Shown here: positions 17,027 through 35,442 of the stretch, piece by piece
How positions within the stretch are numbered: the stretch's first letter is position 1
Layout: each line of letters begins with the position of its first letter
Assembly: GCA_034430495.1 (NCBI GenBank)
Contig: DAOUEG010000115.1
Span: 1 to 62,600, forward strand
DNA length: 62,600 nt
Reading direction: 5' to 3'
DNA from: Dehalococcoidales bacterium
Lineage (GTDB): Bacteria; Chloroflexota; Dehalococcoidia; Dehalococcoidales; RBG-16-60-22
Program-made: the position numbers and the translations under genes
Notes under the pieces: generated by a model
The model's input: the letters and a program-made list of their open reading frames with translations, nothing else
What the model was told of the DNA's origin: nothing
Databases searched by the model: none

Positions 17027-17057
17027 GGCAATTCCTCCTTCGTAGATTTGGGTGGTG

Positions 17058-17825
17058 CTAGACCAGCACGCTGCCGCCGTTGACGACGATATACTGGCCG
17101 GTGATGAAGTCCGCGTCCGCCGAGGCGAGGAAGACGGCCGTGCCGACCACGTCCGCCGGCTCCTCGCGGCGCTTGAGGCACTGCTGCTCGATGGTGGCCT
17201 GGAAGGACGCCTCGCTGCGGTCCTGGCCTAGGCTGGCCTCCGTCGCCGTGAACCCGGGGGCGATGCTGTTGACGTTGATGCCGTGCGGCCCGAGGTTCCG
17301 GGCCAGGGCCTGGGTCAGCGCGTAGACGGCGGCCTTGGAGCAGGCGTAGGGCATGAGCCCGGCGGACCCGGCCACCTTGAACACGTCCGAGGCGATGTTG
17401 ATAATCTTACCCTTGCCCCTCTTCACCATGAGCGGGGCGACCGCCTTGCAGACGAGGTAGGTGCCGGTGACGTTGATGCCGAACATCACGTCCCAGTCCT
17501 CCTTGACCCAGCCGTCCCAGGGGCGGCGCTCCACGCCGTAGTAGAGGGCGGCGTTGTTGAGCAAGATGTCCACGCCGCCGTAGAGCTTGTCCACTGTCAC
17601 GGCGATGGCCTCGGTGTCCTCCGGGGCGGAGATATCGGCGCGCATGGCCCGGGCCTCGCCGCCGTTATCACGGATCTCCTTGGCGGTAGCCTCCGCTCGC
17701 GCCAGGCTGATGTCCGGCAGCAGCAGCCTGGCCCCTTCCGCCGCGTAGCGGAGGGCGAACTGCTTGCCGAAGCCGCGCCCGGCCCCGGTGATGATGGCGA
17801 TTTTCCCCTGCAGTACGGGTGACAT
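17058..17825 (-). CDS. Short-chain dehydrogenase/reductase (SDR)
   Basis: 255 aa from ATG 17825 (SD AGGAGG). TGAGRGFG Rossmann motif, NNAA, and catalytic YxxxK (YACSKAA). Confidence 0.88.
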   Translation of the reverse strand: MSPVLQGKIAIITGAGRGFGKQFALRYAAEGARLLLPDISLARAEATAKEIRDNGGEARAMRADISAPEDTEAIAVTVDKLYGGVDILLNNAALYYGVERRPWDGWVKEDWDVMFGINVTGTYLVCKAVAPLMVKRGKGKIINIASDVFKVAGSAGLMPYACSKAAVYALTQALARNLGPHGINVNSIAPGFTATEASLGQDRSEASFQATIEQQCLKRREEPADVVGTAVFLASADADFITGQYIVVNGGSVLV

Positions 17826-17912
17826 GACAGCCTCCTGGGAACCCGGTCTCGTATACTCGGTGATTGTACACCGCCGCCGAGCCTGCGTCAAACACGAAAA
17901 CCGGCTCCCGGA

Positions 17913-17941
17913 TTGACATTCATGAAGCTGTTGTGTACTCT
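17913..17941 (+). promoter_or_regulatory. Sigma-70-type promoter of AOR paralog 3
   Basis: TTGACA-N17-TACTCT, 58 nt upstream of the ATG. SD AAAGGAG precedes the start. Confidence 0.55.
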
Positions 17942-17998
17942 GTAATGCGGAGCGAAGCACCACCCTTTCGGGAATTAGTGTAAAAAGGAGCATGCACT

Positions 17999-19849
17999 AT
18001 GGCACATGGTTTTATGGGTAAAATCCTCTGGGTTGACCTGGCAGCCAAGACCCTCACCGACGAGCCCCTCGATGAGCGGATGGGCCGCGACTACCTCGGC
18101 GGCTACGGCCTCGGGGCGAAAATCCTCTTCGACCGCCAGAAGGCGGGCGTTGACCCCCTCGGGCCGGACGCCATCCTCGGCCTCATGACCGGCGTCCTCA
18201 CCGGCACCGACGCCCTCGGCGGCTCGCGCTACATCATGGTCGGCAAGTCGCCGCTCACCGGCGGCTGGGGCGACGGCAACTCCGGCGGCGCCGTGGGCCC
18301 GAACCTCAAGTTCGCCGGCTACGACGCGGTCTTTTTCAAGGGCATCAGCGCCAAGCCGGTCTACCTCTACATCGAGAACGGCAAGGCGGAGCTCAAGGAC
18401 GCCGGCAGCCTCTGGGGCAAGGACACCTTCGAGACGCAGGACGTCCTGCGGGAGGCCCACGGCAAGGACGTGGAAGCCGCCTGCATCGGCCCGTCCGGCG
18501 AGAAGATGTGCCTGACGGCCGCGGTCATGAACAACAAGGGCCGCGCCGCCGCCCGCTCCGGCCTCGCGGCGGTGATGGGCTCCAAGAAGCTCAAGGCCAT
18601 CGCCGTGAAGGGCAACCTGGAGGTGCCGGTGGCGGACAAGGCCGCCTCCGCCGCCATGCGGAAGAAGCACCTCGCCAACATGGGCCCGGCCCAGCTGATG
18701 AAGGACTTCGGCACCTGCGGCATGTACGGTTTCACCGCCCAGGTGGACGACACGCCCTGCAAGAACTGGGGTGGCACCGCTGTGGTGGACTTCCCGGACT
18801 TCGAGAAAATCAACGGCCCCAACATCGTTGACAAGCAGGAACGGCGCTACGGCTGCTGGCACTGCCCCATCTCCTGCGGCGGCGTCATGAAGGCCTCCGC
18901 CCCGGACAGCGACTACCAGTGGGAGGCCGGCGCGCACAAGCCGGAGTACGAGACCCAGGCCATGTTCGGCGGCAACTGCCTCAACGATAACGTCGCCTCC
19001 ATCATCAAGGCCAACGACATCTGCAACCGCTACGGCCTGGATACCATCGCCGCCGGCTCCTGCATCGCCTTTACCATCGAGTGCTACGAGAACGGCATCC
19101 TGACCAAGGACGACACCGACGGCCTGGAGATGACCTGGGGCAACCACAAGAACATCATCGCCATGCTGGAGAAGCTGGCCAAGCGCGAGGGCTTCGGGGA
19201 TGTGATTGCGGACGGCACCAGGAACGCCGCCAAGAAGATCGGCAAGGGCGCCGAGAAGTTGGCCATGAACGTGGACGGCATCGAAATCCCGGCCCACGAT
19301 TCCCGCGGCGGCCTCAACTTCGCCATCGGCTACGTCGGCGAACCGTGCCCGGCCAAGCATACCCAGGGCGGCGAGGGCCCGCTGCCGAAGGGCGCCCTGC
19401 CGGAGTTCGACCGCGACGCCACCAAGGGCCGCGGCCCGGCCCACAAGCAGGGTGCCGCCTACACGGTGGCCTACAACGCCGCCGGGCTCTGCATGATCGT
19501 CATCGGCGACGGCTACGGCCACATTGACGACTTCGTCGAGGCGCTCCGCACCATTACCGGCTGGCCGATTGACAACGCCGAGGTCATCAAGACCGGCGAG
19601 CGCATCGAGACCATCCGGCAGGCCTTCAACATCCGCGAGGGCCTCACCACCCCGTGGCACTTCCCGGACCGCATGATCGGCAAGCCGCCCAAGACGGTCG
19701 GCCCGCGGGCCGGCGCCACCCTCAACCCGCCGGACCTCACCGACGAGTACTTTACCGAGCTCGGCTGGGACACCAGGACCGGCAAGCCGAGCAAGGCCAA
19801 GCTGGAAGCGCTCGGCATGGCCGACGTGGCCAAGGTGCTCTACCCGTAA
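17999..19849 (+). CDS. Aldehyde:ferredoxin oxidoreductase family enzyme, paralog 3
   Basis: 616 aa. GFMGKILWVDLAAK...LGGYGLGAKIL and CWHCPISC cluster motif. Confidence 0.9.
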   Translation: MAHGFMGKILWVDLAAKTLTDEPLDERMGRDYLGGYGLGAKILFDRQKAGVDPLGPDAILGLMTGVLTGTDALGGSRYIMVGKSPLTGGWGDGNSGGAVGPNLKFAGYDAVFFKGISAKPVYLYIENGKAELKDAGSLWGKDTFETQDVLREAHGKDVEAACIGPSGEKMCLTAAVMNNKGRAAARSGLAAVMGSKKLKAIAVKGNLEVPVADKAASAAMRKKHLANMGPAQLMKDFGTCGMYGFTAQVDDTPCKNWGGTAVVDFPDFEKINGPNIVDKQERRYGCWHCPISCGGVMKASAPDSDYQWEAGAHKPEYETQAMFGGNCLNDNVASIIKANDICNRYGLDTIAAGSCIAFTIECYENGILTKDDTDGLEMTWGNHKNIIAMLEKLAKREGFGDVIADGTRNAAKKIGKGAEKLAMNVDGIEIPAHDSRGGLNFAIGYVGEPCPAKHTQGGEGPLPKGALPEFDRDATKGRGPAHKQGAAYTVAYNAAGLCMIVIGDGYGHIDDFVEALRTITGWPIDNAEVIKTGERIETIRQAFNIREGLTTPWHFPDRMIGKPPKTVGPRAGATLNPPDLTDEYFTELGWDTRTGKPSKAKLEALGMADVAKVLYP

Positions 19850-23170: not shown

Positions 23171-25960
23171 CTAGTTCCGATTGATGATGTAGTGGGTGGT
23201 GCCGCTCGTCAGCGTCTCGCTGCGGACGGACAGGATGAGGTAGATGAAGGTCCAGGCGTCCGTCCCGGAATCCATGTCCAGGTGGAGCTCGGTATCGCCC
23301 GGCGTCAGGATGCCGGACGCCCAGGTGACCGCGAACGTATCCACGTCAACGCCGGGGTAGCTCATGTCCGGCCCGGCCCCGTTCCAGACGTTGTTCCAGG
23401 GGCTGGCGCTGTTGGAGAGGTAGGCGCTCGTACCGGACTGCTGGCCGGTAATCTCCAGGCTGTCGCCGGTATAGGCGGCGTCACCCTCGCCGACGAAGCA
23501 GGTGATGCGGGCGGCGTTCGTCTCGGTGATATTCCCGTTGGCGTCCCGGATGGGCTCCGGGACGACGAAGTTGGTGATATCGCCGCCGGGGACGCCGTCC
23601 TGGTCGAAGTCCAGGTTGGTGTTGCCGGGGTTATCGGCGAAGAAGTCCCGCAGGTACAGGTAGTGGCCGGCCGTCGTCGGGCTGGCGTAGATGAGGATCA
23701 TGGACCAGCCGGCGTGAGAGAGGTAGTTGCCGGTGCTGCCGTCAACGTCACCCACGGTGTAGTCCGCGTTGCCGGTATGGTGCTCTTCGCCCTCGTCCAC
23801 CGGGTACGTCTTGACGAGCCGGGACACGTCCGTCTTGCAGCGGTAGAAGTAGCCGCCGAGGCTCGTCGGGGCCAGCAGGACGGCCGAGCTATCGGCTTCG
23901 AGCGGGTCGCTCCCGACGTGCGGGTCGCCGTTGCCGTCGTAGTGGACCTGCTGGCCGTCAATCTCGAAGGTCGCCTCCGTGTCTGGCGGCAGGTTGCGGA
24001 CGAGGAAGTTATCAATGCTGACGGACTGGCCGTGCTCCAGGCCGACGGTATCGAACCGGATGGTGAACTGGCCGGTGGTGTACGCCGCCGGCACGTAGTA
24101 TTCATAGCTGTCGTTGGAACCGGTCACGTCGTCGCGGAAGGCCTCGATGGTATCGCTCCAGGTGGCGCCGTTGTCGCCGGAGACGGCGAAATCGAGGCCG
24201 TCGGACGAGGTCATCGGCACGGTAATCTTGATGTTGTCCACGAAGAGCGCGTCACTGCCGGCAAACCCGACGACCCTCAGGCTGAGCCTGAAGCCGGAGG
24301 TGCGGTATTCCGCAGGGATGGTAATGGTCCACGTTTCCGAGCCGCCGGACAGGTCGTCCCTGAAAACTTCATCGTACGAGCTCCAGGTGGTGCCGTTATC
24401 GGATGAAAACGCGTAGTCGAGCCCTTCCGACGAGCCGAGGTGCCAGTCGTCTTCCGACAGGTCCATGCTCAGGGTCAGGGGCGCGGCGCCGCCATAGCCG
24501 CTGAGGTCGATGGAGGTGTCCATGGTCAGGTTGGCCGCGGTGCCGCCGCTGTTATAGCGGGCGCGGAACCGGTTACTCGAGATAGACCAGGAGCCGCCGG
24601 CCGTCCAGTCGTCGAAGTTGTCACACGTTTCGAGGTACACGGACGCGTCCGAGGAGTCCTGGTCCCAGGTGATGAGTATGGAACCCGGGGTATAGTCGCT
24701 GAGGTCGAGCGTGTCCAGCGTGAGGTAGTCGGCATCGGCCGTGCCGCCGGTGTTCTCGCCCACGTACTCCCCGGACCCCTGCGACCAGTCCGAGGGAGAG
24801 GCCCGGAGCCAGTTGGTGGTGATATCGCCGCCGCTGTCGCTGAGCACGGTGACGATGTGAGAGTCGTCCAGCCAGCCGGTCCAGTAGAGGTAGGCGTCCA
24901 GGGCGTCGCCGTCGGAGGGAACGGAGGTGATGGAGGTGGTGCTCTCTGACAGCAGCGTATCGCGCCTGTCGTACGGGTAGTAGTTGTCCAGCATGAGCGA
25001 GTTGCCGATGGCGATGTACTCGCCGGTCATGGCGTCGCCCATCTGGCGGAGCTCGGACTTGGAGGAGTAGGCGGTAATGGTGGTCCCGCCGACGGTGGAG
25101 GTAATCTTGAAGATGCGGGTGTCCACGTCCCAGGAGATGGGGTACGGGCTCTCGGAGCCGTCCTCGAGCTCGGTGGTAATCCAGGCGATGGCGGTGGGCA
25201 TCTCGTCCGGGTTATCGTCCGGCGGCAGGTAGTCGAAGCTGAGGTCGAGGTGCATGGGGGAGTCCTCGGTGCTGACGTCGGGGAAGTCCGTGAAGAGGGG
25301 ATAGCTGCCGAAGTCGTAGCTCCAGACGATCGCCGTGCCGCCCGGAACGGTCGTTTCGCTGGGTTCCGAGTAGCAGGGGTCCCCGCCGTCCAGGTTTTCC
25401 AGGGTGCTGTTGCCGTTGTAGCGGAACCCCTGCGGCAGCCAGACGCCGATGGAGGTGACGGTCAGGTTCTCGCTGACGTCGGCCGGGTCGTAGTCTATCT
25501 TGATATCGTAGGGCTCGCCGGGAATGGCGCCGGCGGTGCCGGTGACGACGAGGCGCTCGCCTTCGATGATGGACTGGGCGTCCCCGGAGGTGAGGCCGAG
25601 GCTGTCCAGCGTCACATTGGAGGGTATCCAGACGTTCTGGATGGACACGTCCGCGGTGAGGCCGTTGAGCTCGTCGGTCTCGTAGCTGTACACGGTATCG
25701 AAGTCATACGGGCTGTAGCTCGGCCCGAAGTAGTCGTACTTGATGCGCCAGACGCCGTCCTCGATGCCGGAATCCGCCGTGTAGATCGTGTTGGTCTGGG
25801 CCTCGTACGTCTGGTTGGAGCGGAGCGCCGTCATGGACAGCGAAAGCGCCGGGACCAGCACGAGGCTGCCGATGACCAGCAAGATGAGGACCAGTATGAT
25901 GGCCTGGCCGCCCTGGGCGGCGTGGAAACCGGAGAGCCAGCGCTTGGCGTACTGTTTCAT
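23171..25960 (-). CDS. Large secreted/anchored protein with PilX-like N-terminal anchor and internal repeats (pilus-associated adhesin candidate)
   Basis: 929 aa. N-terminal AAQGGQAIILVLILLVIGSLVLV hydrophobic anchor. Acidic, Thr/Ser/Asp/Gly-rich, with almost no Lys. Two ~70-aa repeats. Last gene after two prepilin-like genes. Confidence 0.65.
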   Translation of the reverse strand: MKQYAKRWLSGFHAAQGGQAIILVLILLVIGSLVLVPALSLSMTALRSNQTYEAQTNTIYTADSGIEDGVWRIKYDYFGPSYSPYDFDTVYSYETDELNGLTADVSIQNVWIPSNVTLDSLGLTSGDAQSIIEGERLVVTGTAGAIPGEPYDIKIDYDPADVSENLTVTSIGVWLPQGFRYNGNSTLENLDGGDPCYSEPSETTVPGGTAIVWSYDFGSYPLFTDFPDVSTEDSPMHLDLSFDYLPPDDNPDEMPTAIAWITTELEDGSESPYPISWDVDTRIFKITSTVGGTTITAYSSKSELRQMGDAMTGEYIAIGNSLMLDNYYPYDRRDTLLSESTTSITSVPSDGDALDAYLYWTGWLDDSHIVTVLSDSGGDITTNWLRASPSDWSQGSGEYVGENTGGTADADYLTLDTLDLSDYTPGSILITWDQDSSDASVYLETCDNFDDWTAGGSWSISSNRFRARYNSGGTAANLTMDTSIDLSGYGGAAPLTLSMDLSEDDWHLGSSEGLDYAFSSDNGTTWSSYDEVFRDDLSGGSETWTITIPAEYRTSGFRLSLRVVGFAGSDALFVDNIKITVPMTSSDGLDFAVSGDNGATWSDTIEAFRDDVTGSNDSYEYYVPAAYTTGQFTIRFDTVGLEHGQSVSIDNFLVRNLPPDTEATFEIDGQQVHYDGNGDPHVGSDPLEADSSAVLLAPTSLGGYFYRCKTDVSRLVKTYPVDEGEEHHTGNADYTVGDVDGSTGNYLSHAGWSMILIYASPTTAGHYLYLRDFFADNPGNTNLDFDQDGVPGGDITNFVVPEPIRDANGNITETNAARITCFVGEGDAAYTGDSLEITGQQSGTSAYLSNSASPWNNVWNGAGPDMSYPGVDVDTFAVTWASGILTPGDTELHLDMDSGTDAWTFIYLILSVRSETLTSGTTHYIINRN

Positions 25961-25971
25961 ATCCCTTCTCT

Positions 25972-26493
25972 CTACAGGTGGGGCCGGGCCGCGACATCAC
26001 GGGTGCGGGTGACCTGGACGGCGTCCCGCCCCGTGCCGATGCCGATGGTAATACTGATGTTGTAGCTGTTATTGTCCGACGTGCAGTAGGTCAGCTCCTG
26101 GTCGTCGCTGACGTCGCCGGCGAGGAGGGTCGTGGTGCTGCCGGAGCCGTCGCTGTAGGTGCGGCGCAGCGCCCCGTCCTCGAGCGAGTAAGTGACGGTG
26201 TACACCGTGTTGTCCCACCAGGTCCAGGACATGACGAGGTCGTCCGAGTCCGGGAAGCCGGCGGTCCCGTTGACCGTCTGGGCCATCTGGATGTCCTGGC
26301 CGATCCAGTGCACCGCGTTCATGGCCTGCTGGCTGGCGGCGGTGTAGTCCGAGTTCCTGGCCGTCTCGCGGGTGACCTGGGCGATGGCCACGGACACGCC
26401 GAGACCGATGAAGGCCGTCAGCGCCAGGCTGAGGATCATCTCGATGACGGTAAACCCCTTTTCGCCGGGGCGGCGGCGTGCGAACCGCATCAT
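25972..26493 (-). CDS. Prepilin-type N-terminal cleavage/methylation domain protein (minor pilin/pseudopilin-like)
   Basis: 173 aa. Class III signal RRRPGEKG|FTVIEMILSLALTAF with Glu at +5. Confidence 0.8.
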   Translation of the reverse strand: MMRFARRRPGEKGFTVIEMILSLALTAFIGLGVSVAIAQVTRETARNSDYTAASQQAMNAVHWIGQDIQMAQTVNGTAGFPDSDDLVMSWTWWDNTVYTVTYSLEDGALRRTYSDGSGSTTTLLAGDVSDDQELTYCTSDNNSYNISITIGIGTGRDAVQVTRTRDVAARPHL

Positions 26494-26870
26494 CGGGTCA
26501 CCTTATAATCCTGGAGGGCGTAAATTTCGTGCCCGCGGCGCTCGATGGCCACCGTGAGCAGCTGGATATCGTTGGTGCGGATGTCCTCGACGGTCAGGTT
26601 GATGCTGTAGCCGGTATACTCGTCCGGCAGCGTCACGTTGTAGGTGGCGGCGAAGGGCATCTTCTTGACGCTGTCCATGGTGCTCTCGGCCAGCGTCTTG
26701 GCGCTGGCGTGCTCGTCGGCGGTCACGCGGGAGGTGGAGGTGGTGGCGGTGGCGCTGAGGAAGGCGGCCCCGATGATACCGAGCAGCGCGAGGGCCACCA
26801 GTACCTCGATGAGGCCCATCCCCAGTTCCTGCCAGCGATTGCGTTTCTTCCGGCGTACGTCCGGTTTCAT
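26490..26870 (-). CDS. Prepilin-type N-terminal cleavage/methylation domain protein
   Basis: 126 aa from ATG 26870. KKRNRWQELG|MGLIEVLVALALLGII with Glu at +5. ATGA-type overlap with the next pilin-like gene. Confidence 0.75.
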   Translation of the reverse strand: MKPDVRRKKRNRWQELGMGLIEVLVALALLGIIGAAFLSATATTSTSRVTADEHASAKTLAESTMDSVKKMPFAATYNVTLPDEYTGYSINLTVEDIRTNDIQLLTVAIERRGHEIYALQDYKVTR

Positions 26871-26940
26871 CTCAACCACTCCCGGTCCGCCGCAACGGCG
26901 AAAGGAGAACCCGCGGGCCGGCACGGTTTCCCCTCCCGGT

Positions 26941-26969
26941 AGTATGGCCCCCGTTGCCGGGGGTGTAAA
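26941..26969 (-). promoter_or_regulatory. Candidate promoter of the pilin-like operon
   Basis: Minus strand TTTACA-N17-CATACT. The spacer contains the hairpin cccccg-gcaa-cggggg. Confidence 0.35.
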
Positions 26970-27004
26970 TAGCCTTTTGGTCACTGGGACGTGGCCTCCG
27001 TTAC

Positions 27005-28030
27005 CTATGCGACGAGCGATTTCACGATGGGAGACTTGAGGAACGCCTTGACGACGGCGGGGTCGAACTGGGAGCCGGAGCAGCGCTTGATCTCGGCGAT
27101 GGCCCGGGCGGCCGGCATGGCGGCGCGGTAGGGCCGGTCCGAGGTCATGGCGTCGAAGGAGTCCGCCACGGCCAGGATGCGCGCCCCGAGCGGGATGGCC
27201 CGCCCGCTGAGGACCTGCCTGCCGTTCCGGGCATTGAAGCTGTCATGGTGGTGGCGTATCATCTCCACGATGGCCGTGTTGACGAGCGGCTGCACGATGC
27301 CGGGCCCGATGCTGCAGTGGGTCAGGATATAATCGTACTCGGCCGGGGTGAGCGAGCCGGGCTTGTTCTGGACGCTCGGGTCAATGCCTATCTTGCCGAT
27401 ATCGTGGAGGAGCGCCGCCCAGTGGAGGTTGTCGAGCTCCGCCGGCGACAGCCCGAGGGCCTGGCCGGTATCAATGGCGAGCTTGGTGACGCGGCGGGAG
27501 TGGCCGGCCGTGTAGGGGTCCTTGGCCTCCAGCGCGCTCACCAGGGACTCGACGGCGTCCATGAACAGCTTCTGGAGCTCGCGGGCCTGCTGCTCCACCT
27601 TGCCTTCCAGGTCCTGCCGCTTTTCCTTGAGGTTGAGCTCGAGCTGGCGCTTCCGCAGCACCGTCTCGATGTTGCCGACGAGCTGGCCCACGTCGAAGGG
27701 CTTGGTGATGTAGTCGAGCGCCCCGTTCTTCATGCAGGTCACGATGGTTTCCGGCTCGACGACGGCGGTGGCCATGATGATGGCCGTGTTCGGGTGCTTC
27801 TCCCGCAGCTGCGGCAACAGGTCGGCGCCGGTGGTGCCGGGCATCATGATATCCAGGATGACGAGGTCCGCCGGCCAGGCTTCGAGGTGGGCGAGGGCCT
27901 CGGCGGCGCTGCCGGCCTCGGCGCAGGCGAAACCGTTCCGCGTCAGACACTTGTTGAGGCTGCGGCGGACGGTCTTTTCGTCGTCAACGATGAGGATTGA
28001 TTCGCGGCTCGGCGCGGCCAGTAACGTCAT
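27005..28030 (-). CDS. Response regulator: REC domain fused to an HD-GYP-family HD domain with a degenerate GYP motif
   Basis: 341 aa. ILIVDDE...LVILDIMMPG receiver. HD motif LLHDIGK. HHHDSFNARNGRQV sits where canonical HD-GYP has HHExxDGxGYP. Confidence 0.85.
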   Translation of the reverse strand: MTLLAAPSRESILIVDDEKTVRRSLNKCLTRNGFACAEAGSAAEALAHLEAWPADLVILDIMMPGTTGADLLPQLREKHPNTAIIMATAVVEPETIVTCMKNGALDYITKPFDVGQLVGNIETVLRKRQLELNLKEKRQDLEGKVEQQARELQKLFMDAVESLVSALEAKDPYTAGHSRRVTKLAIDTGQALGLSPAELDNLHWAALLHDIGKIGIDPSVQNKPGSLTPAEYDYILTHCSIGPGIVQPLVNTAIVEMIRHHHDSFNARNGRQVLSGRAIPLGARILAVADSFDAMTSDRPYRAAMPAARAIAEIKRCSGSQFDPAVVKAFLKSPIVKSLVA

Positions 28031-30300
28031 GATGCAGGTTTCCTCTCTGTAGCGGTATCGGATGAAGCTCCCTCCGCCGGGGCGTCCCCGATGATGGGGA
28101 AGGTAATGGTGAAGGTGGCCCCCTGGCCGACCTCGCTCCGCACGCTTATCTTGCCGCCGTGCTTGACGGTGATGCCGTAGCAGATGCTGAGGCCGAGCCC
28201 GGTCCCCTTGCCGATTTCCTTGGTCGTGAAGAACGGGTCGAAGATACGCGGCAGGACGGATTTCTTGATGCCGCAGCCGTTGTCCTGGAAGCTGATTTTC
28301 ACCGAGTTGCCGGTGTGCCGCGTGGTGACGGTGAGCAGGCCGGGGCGGCCGACGGCTTCGATGGCGGCTTCCGCGTTGAGAACGATGTTGAGGAACACCT
28401 GCTGCAGCTGGTAGCGGTCAATGGCGACCTCCGGCAGGTTCCCGGCCAGGTTGGTGACCACGGTGATGTTGCCGGTGCTCGTCAGGTACTCCCGCAGCCG
28501 CAGCACGTCCCGGACGATGTCGTTGGGGTTGGCCCGTCCGCGGGCGTAGTTGTTGTTGCGGGTGAACAGCAGCACGTTGCGCACGATGCTGGCGGCCCGC
28601 TTGGCCTCGTCGTAGATGCAGGCGAGGTCTTCCCGGGACTCCCCGGCGACGCTGCCTTCGAGCAGCATCTGGGAGAGAGCCAGAATGCCGGTGAGCGGGT
28701 TGTTGAGCTCGTGGGCGAGCCCGGCCGCCATCTGGCCGATGGAGGCGAGCCGGTCGGTGAGGTAGAGCTTCTCCTTCTCCTCGACGGCGCGGGAGATATC
28801 GGAGAAGGTCATGAGCGTGCGGTTGTTCTCCATGCGGGTAATGACGCAGGCAAAAATCCGGTCCGTGCGGCCCTTCTGGTAGCGGAACTCGAGGGCGGCT
28901 TCCGCCCGGCGCCCGCGCTTGACCTCCCGGTAGGTCTCCAGGAGCTGTTTGACCGGTAAAATGTCTTTCAGCCGGCGTGCGGCCGCGGGCCGCCCGGCGA
29001 GGCCGAACATGCGGCGGAAGGCGGCGTTGACGAGGATGGCGTTGTCGCCTCTATCGGCCACGACGACGCCCTCCGTCATGGCGGCCAGTATGCTGTCCAC
29101 GAGCTCCTTGCTGACCTGGAGCTTGGATTCGGTCTCCTTCTGCCGGGTGATATCGTGGTAGATGCCGATGTAGGAGACGGTGTTGCCCTCCTCGTCCATG
29201 AGGGGGGAATAACGGCAATCGCAGATAATCACCTCGCCGTCCTTGCGGCGCTTGCGGATGACGCCGGTCCAGGGGTTGCCCCGGCCGAGATTGAGGTACA
29301 TCCGCGCCAGCGTCCGGCGGGGGAGCGGTTTATCATTGAAGAGCGAGAGCGGCTGGCCGGTCGCCTCTTCCAGCGTGTAGCCGAAGAGGTCCTGGGCCGT
29401 CTTGTTCAGGTAGACGATCTTGCGGTCGGCGTCCGCGACGACGGTGGCGTCCGAGACCTGCTCGGTGATGGAGCTGAGCAGGCGGAGCTGCTCTTCCGTT
29501 TCCCTGAGCTTGGTGATGTCCAGCACGTGCATCATGACGTGGGGCTGGCCGTCCAGAGTGATGACCCGGCCGGAGGCGTAGCCCATGCGGAACACGCCGG
29601 TCTTGGTGCGGTAGGGCAGCAGCTCGTCGTGGAACTCGCCGTGCTCCAGGAGCAGGTGGGCGACCCGTTCGAAGTCTGCCGGGCTGTCCCAGAGGCCGAG
29701 CTCGTCCGGGGTGCGGCCGATGACCTCGGCGCGGGTGTAGCCCTTGTCGCGGAGGAAGGCCTCGTTGACCTCCACGAACCGGGTGCTCGGCAGGTGGGCG
29801 ATGGAGATGCCGGCCGGGCTGGCGTTGAAGGCGGTGGTCAGGCGCTCCTCGGACTCGCGGAGGGCCTTCTGGGTGGCCTTGCGGCCGGTGATGTCGCGGC
29901 TGATGAAGACCACGTCCGTGGCGCGGCCGTCGGCATCGCGGATGACCGTCTTGGTCTGCTCGATCCAGACGTCGGAGCCGTTCTTGTGGGTCCAGCAGAA
30001 CTCCACCGGCGTGGTGCCCCAGGGATTGTCCGGGTCGGAGAGGGCCTGGAACTCCCGGTAGCGGTCGCTGCCGTCCGGTTCGATGCCGGGGACGCCGGGA
30101 TGGGCGTAAAACTCCTCCTGCGTGAAGCCGGTAATCGGGTAGCAGGCGGGGTTGACGTAGACGAGGTGCTGCGTCGGCGCGAGGCTGACGTGCAGTATCA
30201 TGTCGCTGGAGTTCTCCGCCAGGGCGCGGAAAAGGTCCGCGCTCTCCCCGGCGACGGCCGGGGCGGCGAGGTCCATGACTGCCTGTTTCGTTGCTTTCAT
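28027..30300 (-). CDS. Cytoplasmic multi-PAS sensor histidine kinase
   Basis: About 757 aa from ATG 30300. About four PAS repeats, H-box AHELNNPL, and N/G boxes (NIVLNA, DNGCGI, GTGLGLS). No TM segment. ATGA overlap with the regulator. Confidence 0.88.
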   Translation of the reverse strand: MKATKQAVMDLAAPAVAGESADLFRALAENSSDMILHVSLAPTQHLVYVNPACYPITGFTQEEFYAHPGVPGIEPDGSDRYREFQALSDPDNPWGTTPVEFCWTHKNGSDVWIEQTKTVIRDADGRATDVVFISRDITGRKATQKALRESEERLTTAFNASPAGISIAHLPSTRFVEVNEAFLRDKGYTRAEVIGRTPDELGLWDSPADFERVAHLLLEHGEFHDELLPYRTKTGVFRMGYASGRVITLDGQPHVMMHVLDITKLRETEEQLRLLSSITEQVSDATVVADADRKIVYLNKTAQDLFGYTLEEATGQPLSLFNDKPLPRRTLARMYLNLGRGNPWTGVIRKRRKDGEVIICDCRYSPLMDEEGNTVSYIGIYHDITRQKETESKLQVSKELVDSILAAMTEGVVVADRGDNAILVNAAFRRMFGLAGRPAAARRLKDILPVKQLLETYREVKRGRRAEAALEFRYQKGRTDRIFACVITRMENNRTLMTFSDISRAVEEKEKLYLTDRLASIGQMAAGLAHELNNPLTGILALSQMLLEGSVAGESREDLACIYDEAKRAASIVRNVLLFTRNNNYARGRANPNDIVRDVLRLREYLTSTGNITVVTNLAGNLPEVAIDRYQLQQVFLNIVLNAEAAIEAVGRPGLLTVTTRHTGNSVKISFQDNGCGIKKSVLPRIFDPFFTTKEIGKGTGLGLSICYGITVKHGGKISVRSEVGQGATFTITFPIIGDAPAEGASSDTATERKPAS

Positions 30301-30526
30301 CTGATGCCGCCGGGGGCGCCGTCCGCCCCCGTTTTTCCCACGTAATATGGCCCAATCGTACCACCCGCAGGGTAAACAACGGGTGAACGCCGCGCGCGCG
30401 GATATAAAAGTTCCGTAAAAATCCGCCCCTGTTTGAGCATGAGGCGGGCGCCGGGGCATGGTACAATGGCGGCATGACCCGGCGCCGGAGCAGCCGGGCG
30501 TTTCCCCCGGGGAGAAGGAGCCTGCC

Positions 30527-31750
30527 ATGAAGATAACCCTGCCGCAGCTGGCCTGGCACGGACGGGAGGACCGGGACTTCGAGCTGCCGGACGACTGGGA
30601 CGTCCGGACCTGCCCGATGGCCGGGCACGACCGCCCCCGCCTGTCCGACGCCGCCCTGCGGCGGGCCGTGCGCGGGCCCATCGGCATGGCGCCGCTGCGG
30701 GAGTACGCCCGGGGGAAAAAGCAGGCCGTCATCCTGTTCGACGACCTGGCCCGGGTGACGCGGGTCGCCGAAATCGTCCCGCACGTGCTGGCGGAGCTGG
30801 CGGCGGCGGGCCTCCGGGACGGTCAGATCCGCTTCGTCTGCGCCAACGGCTGCCACGGAGCGATGAACCGGACCGACTTCGAGAAGAAACTGGGCAGCGA
30901 CGTCCTGGCGCGGTTCCCGGTCTACAACCACTCGCCGTTCGATAACTGCGTGCCGGTGGGAACGACGAGCAGCGGTACGCCCCTCGTAATGAACGCCGAG
31001 GTCATGGCCTGCGACCTCAAGATAGGCATCGGCTCCATCGTGCCGCACATCATGGCCGGGTTCGGCGGCGGGAACAAGATAGTCCTGCCGGGCGTGGCCG
31101 CCTACGAGACGGTGGTGGCCCTCCACGCGCCGCGGCAGGCCGGCACCTCGACGGTGAGCGGCATGGGCGCGCTGGCGGACAACCCCCGGCGGCGGGACGT
31201 GGACGAGGCGGCGGCCATCGTGGGGCTGGACATGAAGATTGATGCCGTCGTCAACGCCCGCGGCGAGACGGTCAAGCTCTTCGCCGGGGCGCCGGGGCCC
31301 TGCTACGCCGCTGCCCTGGCCGAGGCCCGGAAGCACTACCTGACCCCGGCGGCGCGGGAGCAGGACGTCGTCATCGCCAACACCTTCGCCAAGGCCAACG
31401 AGGCGGTCTCCGGCCTCATGGTGGCGTTTCCCTCGGTGAAATCGTCCGGCGGGGACGTGGTGCTCATCGCCAACGCGCCGGACGGGCAGATGACCCACTA
31501 CCTGATGGGGCCGTGGGGGAACGACATCGGCGGCAAGCTCCAGCTCGTCATGACGGCGCCGGAAAACGTGGCGCGGCTCATCGTCTTCAGCGAGTACCCG
31601 GAGCTGGCGAGCCGGTACTACCTGGCGGACACCGGCAACGTATTCCTCGTGAACGACTGGGACGAGGTGGTACGGATGCTCGCCGGGCGGCACGGCCCGG
31701 GCACGCGGGCGGCGGTCTACCCGAGCGCGGATATCCAGTATTTCGGGTAA
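30527..31750 (+). CDS. LarA-like (nickel-pincer lactate racemase family, DUF2088) protein
   Basis: 407 aa from ATG 30527 (SD GGAGAAGGAG). DDLARVT, CANGCHG and IVPHIMAGFGGG motifs are typical of the LarA N-terminal domain. Confidence 0.75.
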   Translation: MKITLPQLAWHGREDRDFELPDDWDVRTCPMAGHDRPRLSDAALRRAVRGPIGMAPLREYARGKKQAVILFDDLARVTRVAEIVPHVLAELAAAGLRDGQIRFVCANGCHGAMNRTDFEKKLGSDVLARFPVYNHSPFDNCVPVGTTSSGTPLVMNAEVMACDLKIGIGSIVPHIMAGFGGGNKIVLPGVAAYETVVALHAPRQAGTSTVSGMGALADNPRRRDVDEAAAIVGLDMKIDAVVNARGETVKLFAGAPGPCYAAALAEARKHYLTPAAREQDVVIANTFAKANEAVSGLMVAFPSVKSSGGDVVLIANAPDGQMTHYLMGPWGNDIGGKLQLVMTAPENVARLIVFSEYPELASRYYLADTGNVFLVNDWDEVVRMLAGRHGPGTRAAVYPSADIQYFG

Positions 31751-32854: not shown

Positions 32855-33715
32855 TCAACCCGCCTGGAACGCGTCGAGGAGGGGCGCCGCCTGCTTCGGG
32901 TCCAGCTTCTGCCGCACGACCGCCTGCCTGGCCAGCTGGGGGAGCCTGTCTTCGTAGACGGGGCGCTCCTTCCGGTAGATGATGCCGGTGGGGATGCGGT
33001 CGCCCCACTCCATCGCCTTGGTCATGGCGGCGGTCCAGTCGGACGGGTCGTGGCCCTCGTCCTCCACCTTGTAGACGCGTTCGCGGTACCACTGGTAGGT
33101 GTTGACGTGGTTGAAAGACACGCAGGGCTGGAGGATATCAACGAGGGCGAAGCCGTGGTGGCTGATGCCGGCCCGGATGAGGTCGGTGAGTTGGGGGACG
33201 TCCCCGGCGAAGCCGCGGGCCAGGAAGGTGACGTCCGAGGCGAGCGCTACGGCCAGCGGGCGGAAGGGCTCGCCGGAGCCGAGGGGCGTCGTCTTGGTGA
33301 CGGTGCCGAGGTCGCTCGTCGGGGAGGCCTGCCCCTTGGTGAGGCCGTAAATCTGGTTGTTGGTGGCCAGGTAGGTCAGGTCCACGTTGCGGCGCATGGC
33401 GGCCAGGAGGTGGTTGCCGCCCTCGCCGTAGGCCCCGCCGTCGCCGTCAATGCCGATGACGGTCAGCTTGTGGTTCACCAGCTTGGCCCCCTGGGCGGCG
33501 GGCAGGGAGCGGCCGTGGAGGCCGTTGAAGACGTTGCCGCGGGTATAGTGGGGCAGCTTGGGCCCCTGGCCGATGCCGGAGACGAAGAGGACGTCCCGCG
33601 GCGCCAGCCCGAGAGCCACGAGGGCCTCGTTGACGGCTTTCAAAATGCCGAAGTTGCCGCAGCCGGGACACCAGGCGATGGGGACGTTCGAGGCGTAGTC
33701 CTGCAGCGTTACCAT
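32855..33715 (-). CDS. korB: 2-oxoacid:ferredoxin oxidoreductase, beta (TPP-binding) subunit
   Basis: 286 aa. WCPGCGNFGIL and GIDGDGGAYGEGGNH TPP motif. Substrate (2-oxoglutarate or other) cannot be determined. Confidence 0.85.
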   Translation of the reverse strand: MVTLQDYASNVPIAWCPGCGNFGILKAVNEALVALGLAPRDVLFVSGIGQGPKLPHYTRGNVFNGLHGRSLPAAQGAKLVNHKLTVIGIDGDGGAYGEGGNHLLAAMRRNVDLTYLATNNQIYGLTKGQASPTSDLGTVTKTTPLGSGEPFRPLAVALASDVTFLARGFAGDVPQLTDLIRAGISHHGFALVDILQPCVSFNHVNTYQWYRERVYKVEDEGHDPSDWTAAMTKAMEWGDRIPTGIIYRKERPVYEDRLPQLARQAVVRQKLDPKQAAPLLDAFQAG

Positions 33716-35442
33716 GTCGAAACCTCCTTGCGCACGCGCCGGGCGATGCCCTCCGGCGTGAAGGGGCGGCCGTCATACTTCAGGATTTTGGCGTCCGCGA
33801 CGAGGCCGGTCTCCCGCCGCATGAGGCGGGCGAGCTGGCCGGAGGGGTTGTTCTCCACCACGATGGCCTTGCCGGTCTTCGCCACGGCGGCGGTCACCTG
33901 GGCCGAGGGGAACGGCCAGACCTGGCGGAGCTGGAGGGTGTCCGCCGGGATGCCCTCGTCCTTCAAAAGGGCGGCGGCCTCGCGGATGGCGCCTCCGGTG
34001 CTGCCCCAGCCGATGAGGGTGAGTATCGCGCCCTCCGTGCGGCGGGCGACCGGCCGCAGCACCTCGCGGGCGAGGCCGCGGTTCTTGCGCTGCCGCTTCT
34101 CCACCTGGCGGTTGCGGGTGGCGGCGTCCTCTATCATGTGGCCGTACTCGTCGTGCTCGTCGGAGTCCGTCACCACGAGGGCGGGGCCCCGGCCGGGGAG
34201 GGCCCGCTTGGAGATGCCGGAGCGGGTGATGGCGTGGCGCAGGTAGTCCTTGCAGGTCCGTATCTCGGCCTCGGAGAGCATCTCGCCGCGGTCAATGACG
34301 ACCTTGCTCAGGTCCGGCCGGGCGATGGTGGTGAAGGAGGTGGCCAGGTGGTGGTCCGAGAGGATGAAGACGGGGGTCTGGTACTTCTCCGCCAGGTTGA
34401 AGGCGGTGACGGCGGCCTCGAAGGCCTCGTCGGGCGTCGAAGGGGTCAGAATAGCGCGGGGAAACTCGCCGTGGCCGGCGTGGAGGGCGAACCAGAGCTC
34501 GCCCTGCTCGGTACGGGTGGGCAGGCCGGTGGCCGGGCCGGGCCGCTGGGCCAGGAAGATGACGACCGGCGTCTCCGTCATGCCGGCCAGCGCCAGCGCC
34601 TCCACCATGAGGGCGAAGCCGCCGCCGGAGGTGGCCACCATGGCGCGCGCCCCGGTGAAGCCGGCCCCGACGGCCATGTTCATGCCGGCGATCTCGTCCT
34701 CCACGTGGACGGCCACGGCGCCGAGGGCCCGGCCTTGGTTGGCGATGAACTCCATGACGGAGCTGGCCGGGGTCATGGGGTAGCCGGAGACGAAGCGGCA
34801 GCCGGCGGCAAGGGCGCCGAGGGCCACGGCATCGTTGCCGTTGATGAGCATCTGCCGTGCACCACCCGCTTTCTTGCGGCCGGCCGGGAACGCGACCGAC
34901 ACGCCCAGGTTGTGGATATAATCATAGCCGGCCCTGGCGGCGCCCCGGTTCTCCCTGACGGTCTTGGCGCCGTGGCGGCCGAACTCCTTTTGCAGGGTGG
35001 AGCCGAGGATATCAAGGTCGAACGAACCGGCGCCGAGCACGGCGCCGACGGCCACGGTGTTCTCCATGAGCTTGTTGCCGGCGGTCTCGGTGGCGAGCTT
35101 GGCGAGGGGCACGTTCACGAAGCGTTTGCCGCTGAGCGTCTCGCCGACGGTCTGGGCGTCGTAGATGACGATGCCGGTGGGGGCCAGCTCGCGGCGGTGG
35201 AGCTCGATGGTCTCCCGGTTGAGGGCCACGAGGATGTCCAGCTTCTCGTTGACGGCGCGGACGTCCGCCGTGGCGGCCCGGATGCGGAAGAAGTTGTGGC
35301 CGCCGCGCACGCGGCTCTCGTAGTCCTGGTCGGCGAAGACGGAGAGCCCGGCGGCAGCCAGCGAACCGGCGAGGATGGCCCCGACGGACTGCACGCCCTG
35401 GCCGGCCTCGCCGCCGACCATGATGACGATTTCGTTACTCAT
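33709..35442 (-). CDS. korA: 2-oxoacid:ferredoxin oxidoreductase, alpha subunit
   Basis: 577 aa from ATG 35442 (SD GGGAGG). GGEAGQGVQS N-terminus. Overlaps the beta subunit gene by 7 nt. Confidence 0.85.
   Translation of the reverse strand: MSNEIVIMVGGEAGQGVQSVGAILAGSLAAAGLSVFADQDYESRVRGGHNFFRIRAATADVRAVNEKLDILVALNRETIELHRRELAPTGIVIYDAQTVGETLSGKRFVNVPLAKLATETAGNKLMENTVAVGAVLGAGSFDLDILGSTLQKEFGRHGAKTVRENRGAARAGYDYIHNLGVSVAFPAGRKKAGGARQMLINGNDAVALGALAAGCRFVSGYPMTPASSVMEFIANQGRALGAVAVHVEDEIAGMNMAVGAGFTGARAMVATSGGGFALMVEALALAGMTETPVVIFLAQRPGPATGLPTRTEQGELWFALHAGHGEFPRAILTPSTPDEAFEAAVTAFNLAEKYQTPVFILSDHHLATSFTTIARPDLSKVVIDRGEMLSEAEIRTCKDYLRHAITRSGISKRALPGRGPALVVTDSDEHDEYGHMIEDAATRNRQVEKRQRKNRGLAREVLRPVARRTEGAILTLIGWGSTGGAIREAAALLKDEGIPADTLQLRQVWPFPSAQVTAAVAKTGKAIVVENNPSGQLARLMRRETGLVADAKILKYDGRPFTPEGIARRVRKEVSTW

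What the first reader, a model, noticed from the sequence alone, without database searches (positions are those of the whole stretch)
23171..26870. Orphan pilin-like trio: two prepilin-type proteins plus a 929-aa repeat-rich surface protein, without any assembly genes
Three genes are tightly packed on the minus strand. Two are small proteins with class III signal peptides and Glu+5 (G|MGLIEVLV and G|FTVIEMIL). The third is a 929-aa protein with a PilX-like hydrophobic N-terminal anchor (QGGQAIILVLILLVIGSLVLV) but no G/FxxxE cleavage motif. That protein is extremely acidic and Thr/Ser/Asp/Gly-rich, with almost no Lys, as expected for an extracellular adhesin or tip protein. No PilB/PilC/PilD/PilM-Q, Tad or T2SS genes are in the window. 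The cluster is either a minor-pilin/tip-adhesin module served by machinery encoded elsewhere, or part of an uncharacterised surface filament.
Basis: partly seen in the sequence, partly recalled or inferred. Interest (0 to 1): 0.75.

Follow-up and report, generated by a model that had tools for sequence, protein, structure and literature searches.

The report
Detached type IV pilus tip cassette
These three genes look like a spare "tip kit" for a type IV pilus: two small minor pilins plus a giant acidic pilin-anchored surface protein, which relatives of this Dehalococcoidia bacterium carry inside complete pilus operons but which here sits apart next to a sensor kinase and response regulator.

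Summary
Three tightly packed minus-strand genes encode a 126-aa and a 173-aa prepilin (Gly-1, Glu+5) and a 929-aa very acidic protein. The 62.6-kb window, which is a whole contig, has no pilus assembly gene.

Two details need correcting:
- The large protein lacks Glu5 but has an invariant Gly18 before its hydrophobic helix. This is the GspK/PilX-type pattern.
- It is not repeat-rich. It has one clear internal duplication.

The trio is a conserved cassette. The large protein has at least 276 relatives in Dehalococcoidia genomes, and the two pilin genes accompany it in about 78 of 87 examined loci. In 13 of the 86 loci found through the large protein, the cassette lies inside a complete monoderm type IV pilus operon (PilB, PilC, PilM/N, PilT, with major pilin and prepilin peptidase nearby). 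Two MAG assemblies carry both an operon-embedded trio and an orphan trio; the orphan in one of them is window-type.

Orphan copies evolve under purifying selection (dN/dS 0.23-0.37). They keep their own conserved promoter and, in 31 distinct loci plus the window, follow a PAS kinase and a response regulator with an HD-GYP-like domain.

Best reading: a paralogous minor-pilin priming/tip complex in gene order I-J-K, whose cap subunit is itself a modular adhesin-like protein, served by machinery encoded elsewhere. This is a new variant of a known kind and moderately interesting.

The parts
26490..26870 (-). Minor pilin 1 (126 aa). Class III signal, cleavage predicted after Gly17, Glu+5 present. 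Resembles I-type minor pilins (GspI/PilV/ComGE).
   Evidence: -: sequence and conservation.
- TIGR02532 scores 17.3 bits, above its 16.3 cut-off.
- GspI, PilV and ComGE models match 7 of 7 family members, all below curated cut-offs.
25972..26493 (-). Minor pilin 2 (173 aa). GFTVIE motif, cleavage predicted after Gly13. J-type-like. Its start overlaps the stop of pilin 1 by 4 nt.
   Evidence: -: sequence, conservation and overlap.
- PRK10557 matches 7 of 7 members, HpsC 5 of 7 (best 5.8e-10), and ComGF, GspH and GspJ 4 of 7 each, all below cut-offs.
- The profile matches prepilin N-termini in the PDB.
23171..25960 (-). Large (929 aa) acidic modular protein with a K-type (no Glu5) pilin-like N-terminus. 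Proposed cap and adhesin of the tip complex.
   Evidence: -: ORF, homologs, conservation and composition.
- AF2 model: pLDDT 84.9, pTM 0.68.
- No Pfam family reaches its threshold.
25907..25960 (-). Leader of the large protein (residues 1-18), ending in invariant Gly18. Predicted prepilin-peptidase site; cleavage is inferred, not shown.
   Evidence: - Gly18 is invariant in 58 sequences.
- PilX_N and the tapirin N-terminus match below threshold.
25739..25906 (-). Residues 19-74. Predicted long alpha-1 helix of about 56 residues with a hydrophobic N-terminal half, the length expected of a pilin stalk helix.
   Evidence: - AF2 predicts helix 2-74 in the full-length model and 2-47 plus 57-75 in the N-domain model.
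- The hydropathy peak is at residues 21-39.
25055..25738 (-). Residues 75-302. Conserved beta-sandwich head domain attached to the helix.
   Evidence: - AF2 pLDDT is above 80 across the core.
- Foldseek gives only weak cohesin and Ig-like hits (best E 7e-4) and no solved minor pilin.
23981..25054 (-). Residues 303-660. Variable middle region with two nested jelly-roll modules that carry Asp-box motifs (SSDNGTTW at 519, SGDNGATW at 594). Homologs carry different numbers of modules.
   Evidence: - Internal duplication and motifs.
- Reelin subrepeat-B-like hits.
- Homolog lengths range from about 600 to 1900 aa, with conserved ends.
23174..23980 (-). Residues 661-929. The most conserved domain (87% identity to the closest homolog). 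Rich in invariant Asp and Gly, with a DFDQDG (DxDxDG) loop at residue 784 that may bind Ca2+.
26941..26969 (-). Sigma-70-like promoter (TTTACA, 17 nt spacer, CATACT) in the intergenic region between the response regulator and pilin 1. It is conserved across eight loci, together with upstream (A/G)TGAC elements.
27005..28030 (-). Response regulator: receiver domain plus an HD-GYP-family (HD_5) domain with a degenerate GYP motif. It lies immediately upstream of the trio in 31 distinct loci plus the window.
28027..30300 (-). Cytoplasmic multi-PAS histidine kinase (HisKA plus HATPase_c). The ORF runs to 30732, but the likely start is Met145 at 30300.
   Evidence: The same gene is present in L001-L003 and L005.

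Best explanation
The three genes encode a paralogous minor-pilin priming/tip complex for a monoderm type IV pilus whose motor and major pilin are encoded elsewhere in the genome.

**Proposed mechanism**
1. A prepilin peptidase cuts all three proteins after their conserved Gly (G17, G13, G18).
2. In the membrane, the small I-like and J-like pilins and the large protein bundle through their N-terminal helices.
3. The large protein lacks Glu5, so it can only sit on top as the cap.
4. PilB and PilC then add major pilin underneath.
5. The acidic 90-kDa ectodomain ends up at the pilus tip. It consists of a beta-sandwich head, Asp-box jelly-roll modules and a conserved Asp/Gly-rich C-terminal domain. 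There it most likely acts as an adhesin, possibly binding glycans.

This cassette is a second, detached copy. It has its own promoter and sits next to a PAS kinase and a receiver/HD-GYP-like regulator, which suggests it is an alternative tip deployed on a signal.

**Shown:** motifs, conservation, synteny, operon embedding in relatives, co-occurrence with a pilus operon in two MAGs, purifying selection, and predicted folds.

**Inferred:** cleavage, I-J-K stacking, tip location, adhesion, and regulation by the neighbouring two-component pair.
For: **Prepilin signals**
- Both small proteins have prepilin signals with invariant Gly-1 and Glu5.
- Gene order, rising size (126, 173, 929 aa) and the Glu5 pattern (+, +, -) match gspI-J-K, pilV-W-X and comGE-F-GG. 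In that published complex the K subunit lacks Glu5 and caps the assembly (PMC9934059, read).

**The large protein**
- It has invariant Gly18, one hydrophobic segment and a predicted alpha-1 helix of about 56 residues after the Gly. Everything else is beta-rich and confidently modelled.

**Genomic context in relatives**
- In L007 the order is PilB-PilC-[p1-p2-big]-PilO-like-PilM/N-PilT, followed by a major pilin and a prepilin peptidase.
- The same or a permuted layout occurs in L026-L029, L038, L040, L045, L063, L071, L077, L078, L082, L087 and L088.
- Assembly CAZQQL01 holds a window-type orphan (L009: large protein 54% and regulator 76% identical to the window's) and a pilus operon with a trio (L077). 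The tetranucleotide correlation between the two loci is 0.93.
- Assembly DUEV01 likewise holds L064 (orphan) and L026 (operon-embedded).

**Selection and regulation**
- Against the 79%-identical homolog, dN/dS is 0.37, 0.29 and 0.23 for the three genes. The flanking ABC-2 transporter genes give 0.22-0.24.
- A conserved promoter lies upstream of pilin 1.

**Precedent**
- Myxococcus xanthus has three minor-pilin/PilY1 clusters serving one machine and one major pilin (PMC7541494).
- Streptococcus sanguinis has modular pilins with lectin modules at the pilus tip (PMC9934059).
Against: - No assembly gene and no major pilin lies in the 62.6-kb contig, and the rest of this organism's genome is unavailable.
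- All assignments to I-, J- or K-type families are below curated cut-offs.
- The N-domain model found no solved minor pilin (GspK, PilX, ComZ) by Foldseek, only weak cohesin and Ig-like beta-sandwiches.
- An attempt to find PilB on the same large contigs as orphan trios, by matching contig lengths, found none among the top 120 PilB hits.
- MAG co-occurrence depends on correct binning.
- The regulator has no DNA-binding domain and its GYP motif is degenerate, so how, or whether, it controls the cassette is unknown.
Confidence: 0.75

Rival explanations
1. The large protein is a stand-alone cell-surface protein, held in the membrane by its N-terminal helix on the wall-less, S-layer-covered Dehalococcoidia cell. 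The two pilins form only a short stub or pseudopilus that presents or exports it. No long pilus is involved.
For: - Most cassettes (about 85% of loci) are not next to pilus genes.
- The globular part has no detectable pilin fold.
- Its composition is typical of extracellular or S-layer-like proteins, and a Nitrosopumilus S-layer protein is among the full-length Foldseek hits.
Against: - Homologous cassettes lie between PilC and PilM/N in operons that also encode the retraction ATPase PilT and a separate major pilin. This argues for a real extending and retracting pilus.
- The invariant Gly-1 and the pilin-length helix argue for incorporation into a filament.
- Even a stub would need the prepilin peptidase and the PilB/PilC machinery.
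Confidence: 0.12
2. The cassette belongs to a DNA-uptake (Com-type) pilus or a type II secretion-like pseudopilus, not to an adhesive pilus.
For: - ComGE is the best NCBIfam match of pilin 1, and ComGF and ComGD match pilin 2.
- GspI, GspJ and GspH models also match.
- HpsC, a polysaccharide-secretion pseudopilin, matches 5 of 7 pilin-2 homologs.
Against: - All these hits are below cut-off and largely confined to the shared N-terminal region.
- The embedding operons have PilT and PilM/N, as in type IVa pili.
- The mature large protein has pI 4.05 and only 7 Lys, which is poorly suited to binding DNA.
- Published surveys find no secretins in Chloroflexota (PMC12488501), as expected for monoderms.
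Confidence: 0.08
3. The orphan trio is a decaying or silent remnant of a pilus operon broken up by rearrangement.
For: It is detached from any machinery, and the window has no major pilin.
Against: - All three ORFs are intact and have native codon usage.
- dN/dS is 0.23-0.37, equal to the flanking housekeeping-type transporter genes.
- The same layout, kinase-regulator-trio with a convergent ABC-2 transporter, persists in loci whose large proteins are only 38-79% identical to the window's.
- The promoter is conserved.
Confidence: 0.03

Closest known systems
GspH-I-J-K / FimU-PilV-W-X minor (pseudo)pilin tip and priming complex of type II secretion systems and type IVa pili
   Same: - An operon of consecutive pilin genes of increasing size.
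- The last subunit lacks Glu5 and would cap the complex.
- Pilin 1 resembles GspI/PilV and pilin 2 resembles J-type pilins at sub-threshold level.
- In relatives the genes sit in the pilus operon.
   Different: - There are three subunits rather than four, with no clear H/FimU.
- The K-like subunit is 929 aa (up to about 1900 aa in homologs), against roughly 200-330 aa by my recollection.
- Its globular part shows no detectable GspK or PilX fold.
- No PilY1 is present.
- The host is a monoderm with no secretin.
Streptococcus sanguinis PilA-PilB-PilC tip complex of modular pilins (PMC9934059, PMC8179133)
   Same: - A monoderm type IV pilus.
- A three-pilin operon-encoded complex proposed to sit at the tip.
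- Bulky adhesive modules (lectin, vWA) are grafted onto pilin moieties.
- One subunit lacks Glu5.
   Different: - In S. sanguinis the Glu5-less subunit (PilA) is small and the modular pilins keep Glu5. Here the Glu5-less subunit carries all the modules.
- There is no sequence homology.
- The modules differ: Asp-box jelly rolls and a novel C-terminal domain.
Myxococcus xanthus cluster_1 to cluster_3 (minor pilins plus PilY1) serving one machine (PMC7541494)
   Same: - Several paralogous tip/priming cassettes per genome, located away from the core pilus genes.
- All are served by a single machine and a single major pilin.
- Dehalococcoidia genomes likewise carry two or more trios.
   Different: - The Myxococcus cassettes have four minor pilins plus the non-pilin PilY1.
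- Here the adhesin is fused to the cap pilin.
- The association with a PAS kinase and an HD-GYP-like regulator is specific to this lineage.
[quoted passage not shown]
   Same: - The N-terminal 53 residues match the NCBIfam tapirin model at residues 16-68 (E 5e-4 to 2e-3; 6 of 15 homologs).
- Both are large surface proteins genomically linked to a monoderm pilus.
   Different: - The match is 16-18 bits against a cut-off of 600.
- The rest of the protein is unrelated. The tapirin C-terminal domain is described as structurally unique and is not matched here.

Membership tests
Type IV prepilins (class III signal peptide; TIGR02532 / PF07963) | A short basic leader ending in Gly, then about 20 hydrophobic residues with Glu at +5. 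| tested here: met
   - Pilin 1 has ELG|MGLIE and pilin 2 has EKG|FTVIE. Gly-1 and Glu5 are invariant in seven homologs each.
- TIGR02532 scores 17.3 bits against a 16.3 cut-off for pilin 1.
- For pilin 2 the window copy scores 13.5 bits, below cut-off, but 7 of 7 family members match, best 7.9e-8.
- PF07963 scores 20.8 and 18.3 bits against a cut-off of 21.2.
I-type minor pilins (GspI / PilV / ComGE) | A match to the family models over the globular domain. | tested here: inconclusive
   - The gspI model matches over 94 of its 101 positions at E 8e-6 (26 bits, cut-off 44).
- PilV scores 27 bits against a cut-off of 52.
- ComGE, GspI and PilV each match 7 of 7 homologs.
J-type minor pilins (GspJ / PilW / ComGF) | A match to the family models beyond the N-terminal helix. 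| tested here: inconclusive
   - PRK10557 matches 7 of 7 members, HpsC 5 of 7, and ComGF, GspH and GspJ 4 of 7.
- All are far below cut-offs, and for the window protein the matches cover only about the N-terminal 70 residues.
K-type cap pilins (GspK / PilX / ComGG) | A prepilin-like N-terminus with Gly-1 but no Glu5. | tested here: met
   Gly18 is invariant and position +5 is Leu (Met in L004b and L007).
K-type cap pilins (GspK / PilX / ComGG) | A family model match (PF14341 PilX_N, or the GspK or ComGG models), or fold similarity to solved K subunits. | tested here: not met
   - PilX_N scores 13-15 bits against a cut-off of 25.5, with 5 of 15 homologs matching at E 1e-3 or weaker.
- No GspK or ComGG hit appears.
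- Foldseek of the N-domain model finds no minor pilin.
Type IV pilus gene cluster component | Encoded together with the PilB ATPase, the PilC platform, PilM/N and a prepilin peptidase. | tested here: not met
   - Not met in the window.
- Met for homologous trios in 13 of the 86 loci found through the large protein, and in two further loci found through PilB.
Modular pilins (pilin moiety plus grafted functional modules) | A class III-type N-terminal helix followed by extra folded domains. | tested here: met
   - The AF2 model shows helix 2-74 followed by several beta-sandwich and jelly-roll domains.
- The number of modules varies among homologs.
- Processing and incorporation into a pilus were not tested.
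PilY1 / PilC tip adhesins | A C-terminal beta-propeller (PF05567), often with an N-terminal vWA domain. | tested here: not met
   No such Pfam hit, and no PilY1 among the PDB sequence or fold hits.
Tapirin (NF051896) | A full-length match at or above 600 bits. | tested here: not met
   16-18 bits, covering the N-terminal 53 residues only.
HD-GYP c-di-GMP phosphodiesterases (the neighbouring response regulator) | An HD_5 domain with the metal-binding His and Asp residues and the GYP motif. | tested here: inconclusive
   - HD_5 scores 93.7 bits against a cut-off of 27.2.
- HHExxDGxGYP is replaced by HHHDSYDGxGLNQ in orthologs and by HHHDSFNARNGRQ in the window.
- Enzymatic activity cannot be tested with these tools.

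The most novel reading that the evidence does not exclude
Dehalococcoidia use interchangeable three-gene tip cassettes. Several paralogs occur per genome: some inside the pilus operon, others detached and paired with a PAS kinase and an HD-GYP-like regulator. In each cassette the Glu5-less cap pilin is itself a giant modular adhesin. One pilus machine could then swap its tip, and so its binding specificity, in response to a signal. The regulator might act through c-di-GMP on the MshEN domain of PilB. This would be a tip-complex architecture and control logic not described for any type IV pilus.
Probability: 0.3. Interest if true: 0.55.

Novelty: new variant of a known kind. Interest (0 to 1): 0.4.

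Why it matters
Type IV pili of Chloroflexota, and especially of the wall-less, mostly uncultured Dehalococcoidia, are almost unstudied.

This analysis defines a large unannotated protein family. It has 368 clusters at 50% identity with E <= 1e-30, no Pfam model, and is labelled 'hypothetical' in every source that names it clearly (a few JGI entries say PilX or Flp). The analysis ties that family to the pilus tip.

If the model is right, three things follow:
- It gives a minimal three-subunit priming complex for monoderm pili, in which cap and adhesin are one polypeptide.
- It shows that pilus tips are exchanged through paralogous cassettes, much as in Myxococcus.
- It gives annotators a rule for naming these genes, and experimentalists a candidate surface adhesin for attachment or cell-cell contact in subsurface Dehalococcoidia.

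Tried and rejected
1. **PDB sequence searches.** Profiles of the three proteins recovered only generic prepilin N-termini for the pilins. The large protein gave marginal hits to Reelin and a rhamnose-glucuronate lyase.
2. **Foldseek of the full-length model.** It returned only generic jelly-roll and CBM-like multidomain hits with TM-scores below 0.2.
3. **N-domain model.** I modelled residues 1-350 to test for a GspK or PilX fold. No pilin hit appeared.
4. **PilB on the same contigs as orphan trios.** I compared 'longest contig' lengths from a PilB search with the contig lengths of trio loci. Only machinery-linked loci already known re-appeared (contigs of 74554, 55469 and 32497 bp); none of the contigs above 1 Mb that carry orphans matched.
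5. **A false lead on co-occurrence.** Two PilB operons (L087, L088) share ENA accession ERZ25039515 with orphan locus L001. GC content (0.54, 0.61, 0.44) and tetranucleotide profiles show three different genomes, so that accession is a metagenome, not a MAG. I rejected it as co-occurrence evidence.
6. **Tad/Flp and archaellum readings.** Some JGI entries name the large protein 'Flp pilin'. I rejected both readings because the signals are of the bacterial GFxxxE type and the embedding operons are of the PilB/PilC/PilM/PilT type.
7. **'Repeat-rich' claim.** BLAST self-comparison found nothing. Only the targeted alignment revealed the single duplication.

Full report
**1. What is in the sequence**

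Three minus-strand ORFs occupy 23171-26984.
- The most upstream one most plausibly starts at the ATG at 26870, giving 126 aa. Homologs are 115-126 aa, a GGGAG ribosome-binding site precedes this ATG, and a conserved promoter lies further upstream.
- It overlaps the 173-aa gene by four bases (ATGA). Eleven bases separate that gene from the 929-aa gene, which has an AGAAGGGA ribosome-binding site.
- GC3 of 0.82-0.94 matches neighbouring real genes.

The two small proteins carry ELG|MGLIE and EKG|FTVIE.
- Gly-1 and Glu+5 are invariant in seven orthologs each.
- TIGR02532 is passed by the 126-aa protein (17.3 bits against a 16.3 cut-off).
- All seven members of the 173-aa family match TIGR02532.
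- No other prepilin motif exists in any frame of the window.

The large protein is as acidic as claimed: pI 4.05, D+E 15.1%, 9 Lys, and S+T+D+G 40.8% against a 26.1% background. It has a single hydrophobic segment.

Pfam scans of the GC3-supported ORFs of the 62.6-kb window found only metabolism, chaperones, transporters and regulators, and no pilus assembly family. The window is an entire contig.

**2. Two corrections to the finding**

The large protein does lack Glu5, but it is not motif-less. Gly18, immediately before QAIILVLILLVIG, is invariant in 58 homologs. AlphaFold predicts a continuous helix through residue 74, which is about 56 residues after that Gly and the length of a pilin alpha-1 helix. 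Gly-1 without Glu5 is the signature of the cap subunit (GspK/PilX type) of minor-pilin complexes, as summarised in PMC9934059.

'Repeat-rich' is overstated. There is one strong duplication, 509-579 against 584-654 (z = 24), each copy with an Asp-box (SxDxGxTW). A weak one pairs 391-438 with 457-503. The order N1-N2-C1-C2 suggests one jelly-roll module nested inside another.

**3. A conserved cassette**

The large protein has 131 word-index hits, all from Dehalococcoidia or Chloroflexota metagenome-assembled genomes. None has a Pfam domain that explains it. An exhaustive profile search finds 368 clusters at 50% identity with E <= 1e-30. Their lengths run from about 600 to 1900 aa, with conserved N- and C-terminal parts and a variable middle.

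A scan of GTDB species genomes found at least 276 encoding stretches, all in Dehalococcoidia-type MAGs. In about 78 of 87 loci examined, both small pilin genes sit directly upstream of the large gene. The three-gene block is therefore syntenic as a unit. The remaining loci are mostly truncated.

**4. The decisive context**

In locus L007 the trio lies inside a complete monoderm type IV pilus operon. The order is a response regulator, PilB (MshEN plus T2SSE), PilC (T2SSF), pilin, pilin, the large protein, a PilO-like protein, a PilM/N fusion and PilT. A divergent 121-aa canonical major pilin and a prepilin peptidase follow.

tblastn mapping shows the same layout, or the permuted PilB-PilC-x-PilM/N-PilT-[trio], in L026-L029, L038, L040, L045, L063, L071, L077, L078 and L082. 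That is 13 of the 86 loci found through the large protein. L087 and L088, found through PilB, show it too. Some operons hold two trios in tandem (L078, L028).

Two assemblies contain both kinds of trio.
- CAZQQL01 has L009, a window-type orphan whose large protein is 54% and regulator 76% identical to the window's. It also has L077, a trio inside a pilus operon. Tetranucleotide correlation between the two loci is 0.93.
- DUEV01 has L064 (orphan) and L026 (embedded).

This is the best available answer to whether machinery exists elsewhere. A published survey found type IVa pilus loci without secretins in 340 of 3,780 Chloroflexota genomes (PMC12488501).

**5. The orphan copies are maintained**

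Against the 79%-identical homolog on L089, which has the same layout, dN/dS is 0.37, 0.29 and 0.23 for the three genes. The adjacent ABC-2 transporter genes give 0.22-0.24.

The 134-bp region upstream of pilin 1 holds a sigma-70-like promoter, TTTACA-17-CATACT. Its TTTACA and TAATAC-like hexamers, and upstream (A/G)TGAC elements, are conserved across the eight aligned loci, whose large proteins are 38-79% identical to the window's.

In 31 distinct loci plus the window the trio is preceded by a multi-PAS histidine kinase and a receiver/HD_5 regulator. In 34 loci a convergent ABC-2 transporter follows. The regulator is more conserved than the trio (70-79% identity). Its GYP motif is replaced by GLN in orthologs and by NGR in the window.

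**6. Structure**

The full-length model is confident (pLDDT 84.9, pTM 0.68). It shows helix 2-74 followed by all-beta domains.
- Foldseek against the PDB gives Reelin repeats (probability 1.0) and other jelly-roll or CBM-like folds at low TM-score, as expected for a multidomain query. This agrees with the weak Reelin subrepeat-B sequence hits.
- A separate model of residues 1-350 has core pLDDT above 80 and shows a beta-sandwich head. It is only weakly similar to cohesin and Ig-like domains (best E 7e-4) and matches no solved minor pilin.

The K-type assignment therefore rests on the N-terminus, gene order and context, not on the globular fold.

The C-terminal 270 residues are the most conserved part (87% identity to the closest homolog). 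They are rich in invariant Asp and Gly and include a DFDQDG loop.

**7. Family assignments**
- Pilin 1 matches GspI, PilV and ComGE models in 7 of 7 family members. The GspI match covers 94 of 101 model positions.
- Pilin 2 matches PRK10557 in 7 of 7 members, HpsC in 5 of 7, and ComGF, GspH and GspJ in 4 of 7.
- The large protein's N-terminus matches PilX_N and the tapirin N-terminus.

All of these are below curated cut-offs. They show resemblance, not membership.

**8. Interpretation**

The best-supported model, at about 0.75, is a paralogous minor-pilin priming/tip complex arranged like I-J-K. Its Glu5-less cap subunit is itself a modular, probably adhesive, protein. It would be assembled by a type IV pilus machine encoded elsewhere.

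Two precedents exist:
- The S. sanguinis PilABC tip complex of modular pilins (PMC9934059).
- The three minor-pilin/PilY1 clusters that serve one machine in M. xanthus (PMC7541494).

What differs here:
- There are three subunits.
- The cap and the adhesin are fused in one polypeptide.
- The family is unannotated and restricted to Dehalococcoidia.
- The detached copies are associated with a kinase and an HD-GYP-like regulator.

Cleavage, stacking order, tip location, ligand and regulation are all inferences. A speculative link is that PilB in these operons carries an MshEN domain with tandem RLGxxLV-like motifs. By my recollection that domain binds c-di-GMP in other systems, so an HD-GYP-type enzyme next to the cassette could couple tip choice to pilus activity. 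The degenerate GYP motif leaves this open.

**9. Rivals**
- A stand-alone membrane-anchored surface protein with a stub pseudopilus: 0.12.
- A DNA-uptake or secretion pseudopilus: 0.08. The PilT-containing operons and the very acidic ectodomain argue against it.
- A decaying remnant: 0.03. Purifying selection and the conserved promoter argue against it.

**10. Verdict**

The feature is a new variant of a known kind and of moderate interest. The key gap is that this organism's own pilus machinery could not be inspected.

Noticed in passing
window 27005-28030 (-), and orthologs in L001-L003, L005, L008-L014 and others: The response regulator upstream of the trio has an HD-GYP-family (HD_5) domain. 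The canonical HHExxDGxGYP is HHHDSYDGxGLNQ in about 30 orthologs and HHHDSFNARNGRQ in the window (HHHDSYRPRNGKQ in L089). This is a conserved 'HD-GLN' variant of unknown activity. The regulator is 70-79% identical across loci, which is more conserved than the pilins.
   Followed up: partly
window 26871-27004 (-); alignment A5: The intergenic region between the regulator and pilin 1 holds a conserved TTTACA-17-TAATAC-type promoter. Lower-GC relatives also have two (A/G)TGAC elements about 22 bp apart upstream of it, which may be an operator for an unidentified DNA-binding regulator. The adjacent response regulator has no DNA-binding domain.
   Followed up: partly
L007 2845-5535 and 14190-15572; L045, L071: In one operon type PilB is 896 aa, with an N-terminal Mrr_cat-like (restriction-endonuclease-fold) region fused to MshEN plus T2SSE. 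A separate protein combining TackOD1 with an Mrr_cat-like domain, 42% identical to that region, lies between the major pilin and the prepilin peptidase.
   Followed up: no
L004 5047-15037 (GCA_016932435.1): Two complete trios are arranged head to head, with no regulator and no machinery within 10 kb. A 755-aa Lys/Glu-rich protein of unknown function follows them.
   Followed up: no
window 23981-25054 (-), residues 303-660 of the large protein: The two Asp-box jelly-roll modules appear nested, in the order N-half 1, N-half 2, C-half 1, C-half 2. This suggests one module was inserted into another. Homologs of about 770-800 aa appear to lack one module, and homologs up to 1900 aa carry more.
   Followed up: partly
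window 28027-30732 (-) and 30458-31750 (+): The mechanical ORF of the histidine kinase extends 144 codons upstream of the likely start (Met145 at 30300), through an Arg/Ser/Pro-rich stretch. That stretch overlaps the 5' end of the divergent Lar_N-family gene and is probably not translated.
   Followed up: partly
window 13145-19849, 32855-35466, 47220-50524: The metabolic context is typical of fermentative anaerobic Dehalococcoidia. It includes three aldehyde:ferredoxin oxidoreductase paralogs, a 2-oxoacid:ferredoxin oxidoreductase, and a 2-hydroxyacyl-CoA dehydratase with its activator. The AFOR genes and ABC-2 transporter next to the trio recur in relatives (L002, L003, L005).
   Followed up: no
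window 35584-39295 (+): A MoxR AAA+ ATPase, a DUF58 protein and a DUF4129 protein form a three-gene cluster of unknown role, unrelated to the finding.
   Followed up: no
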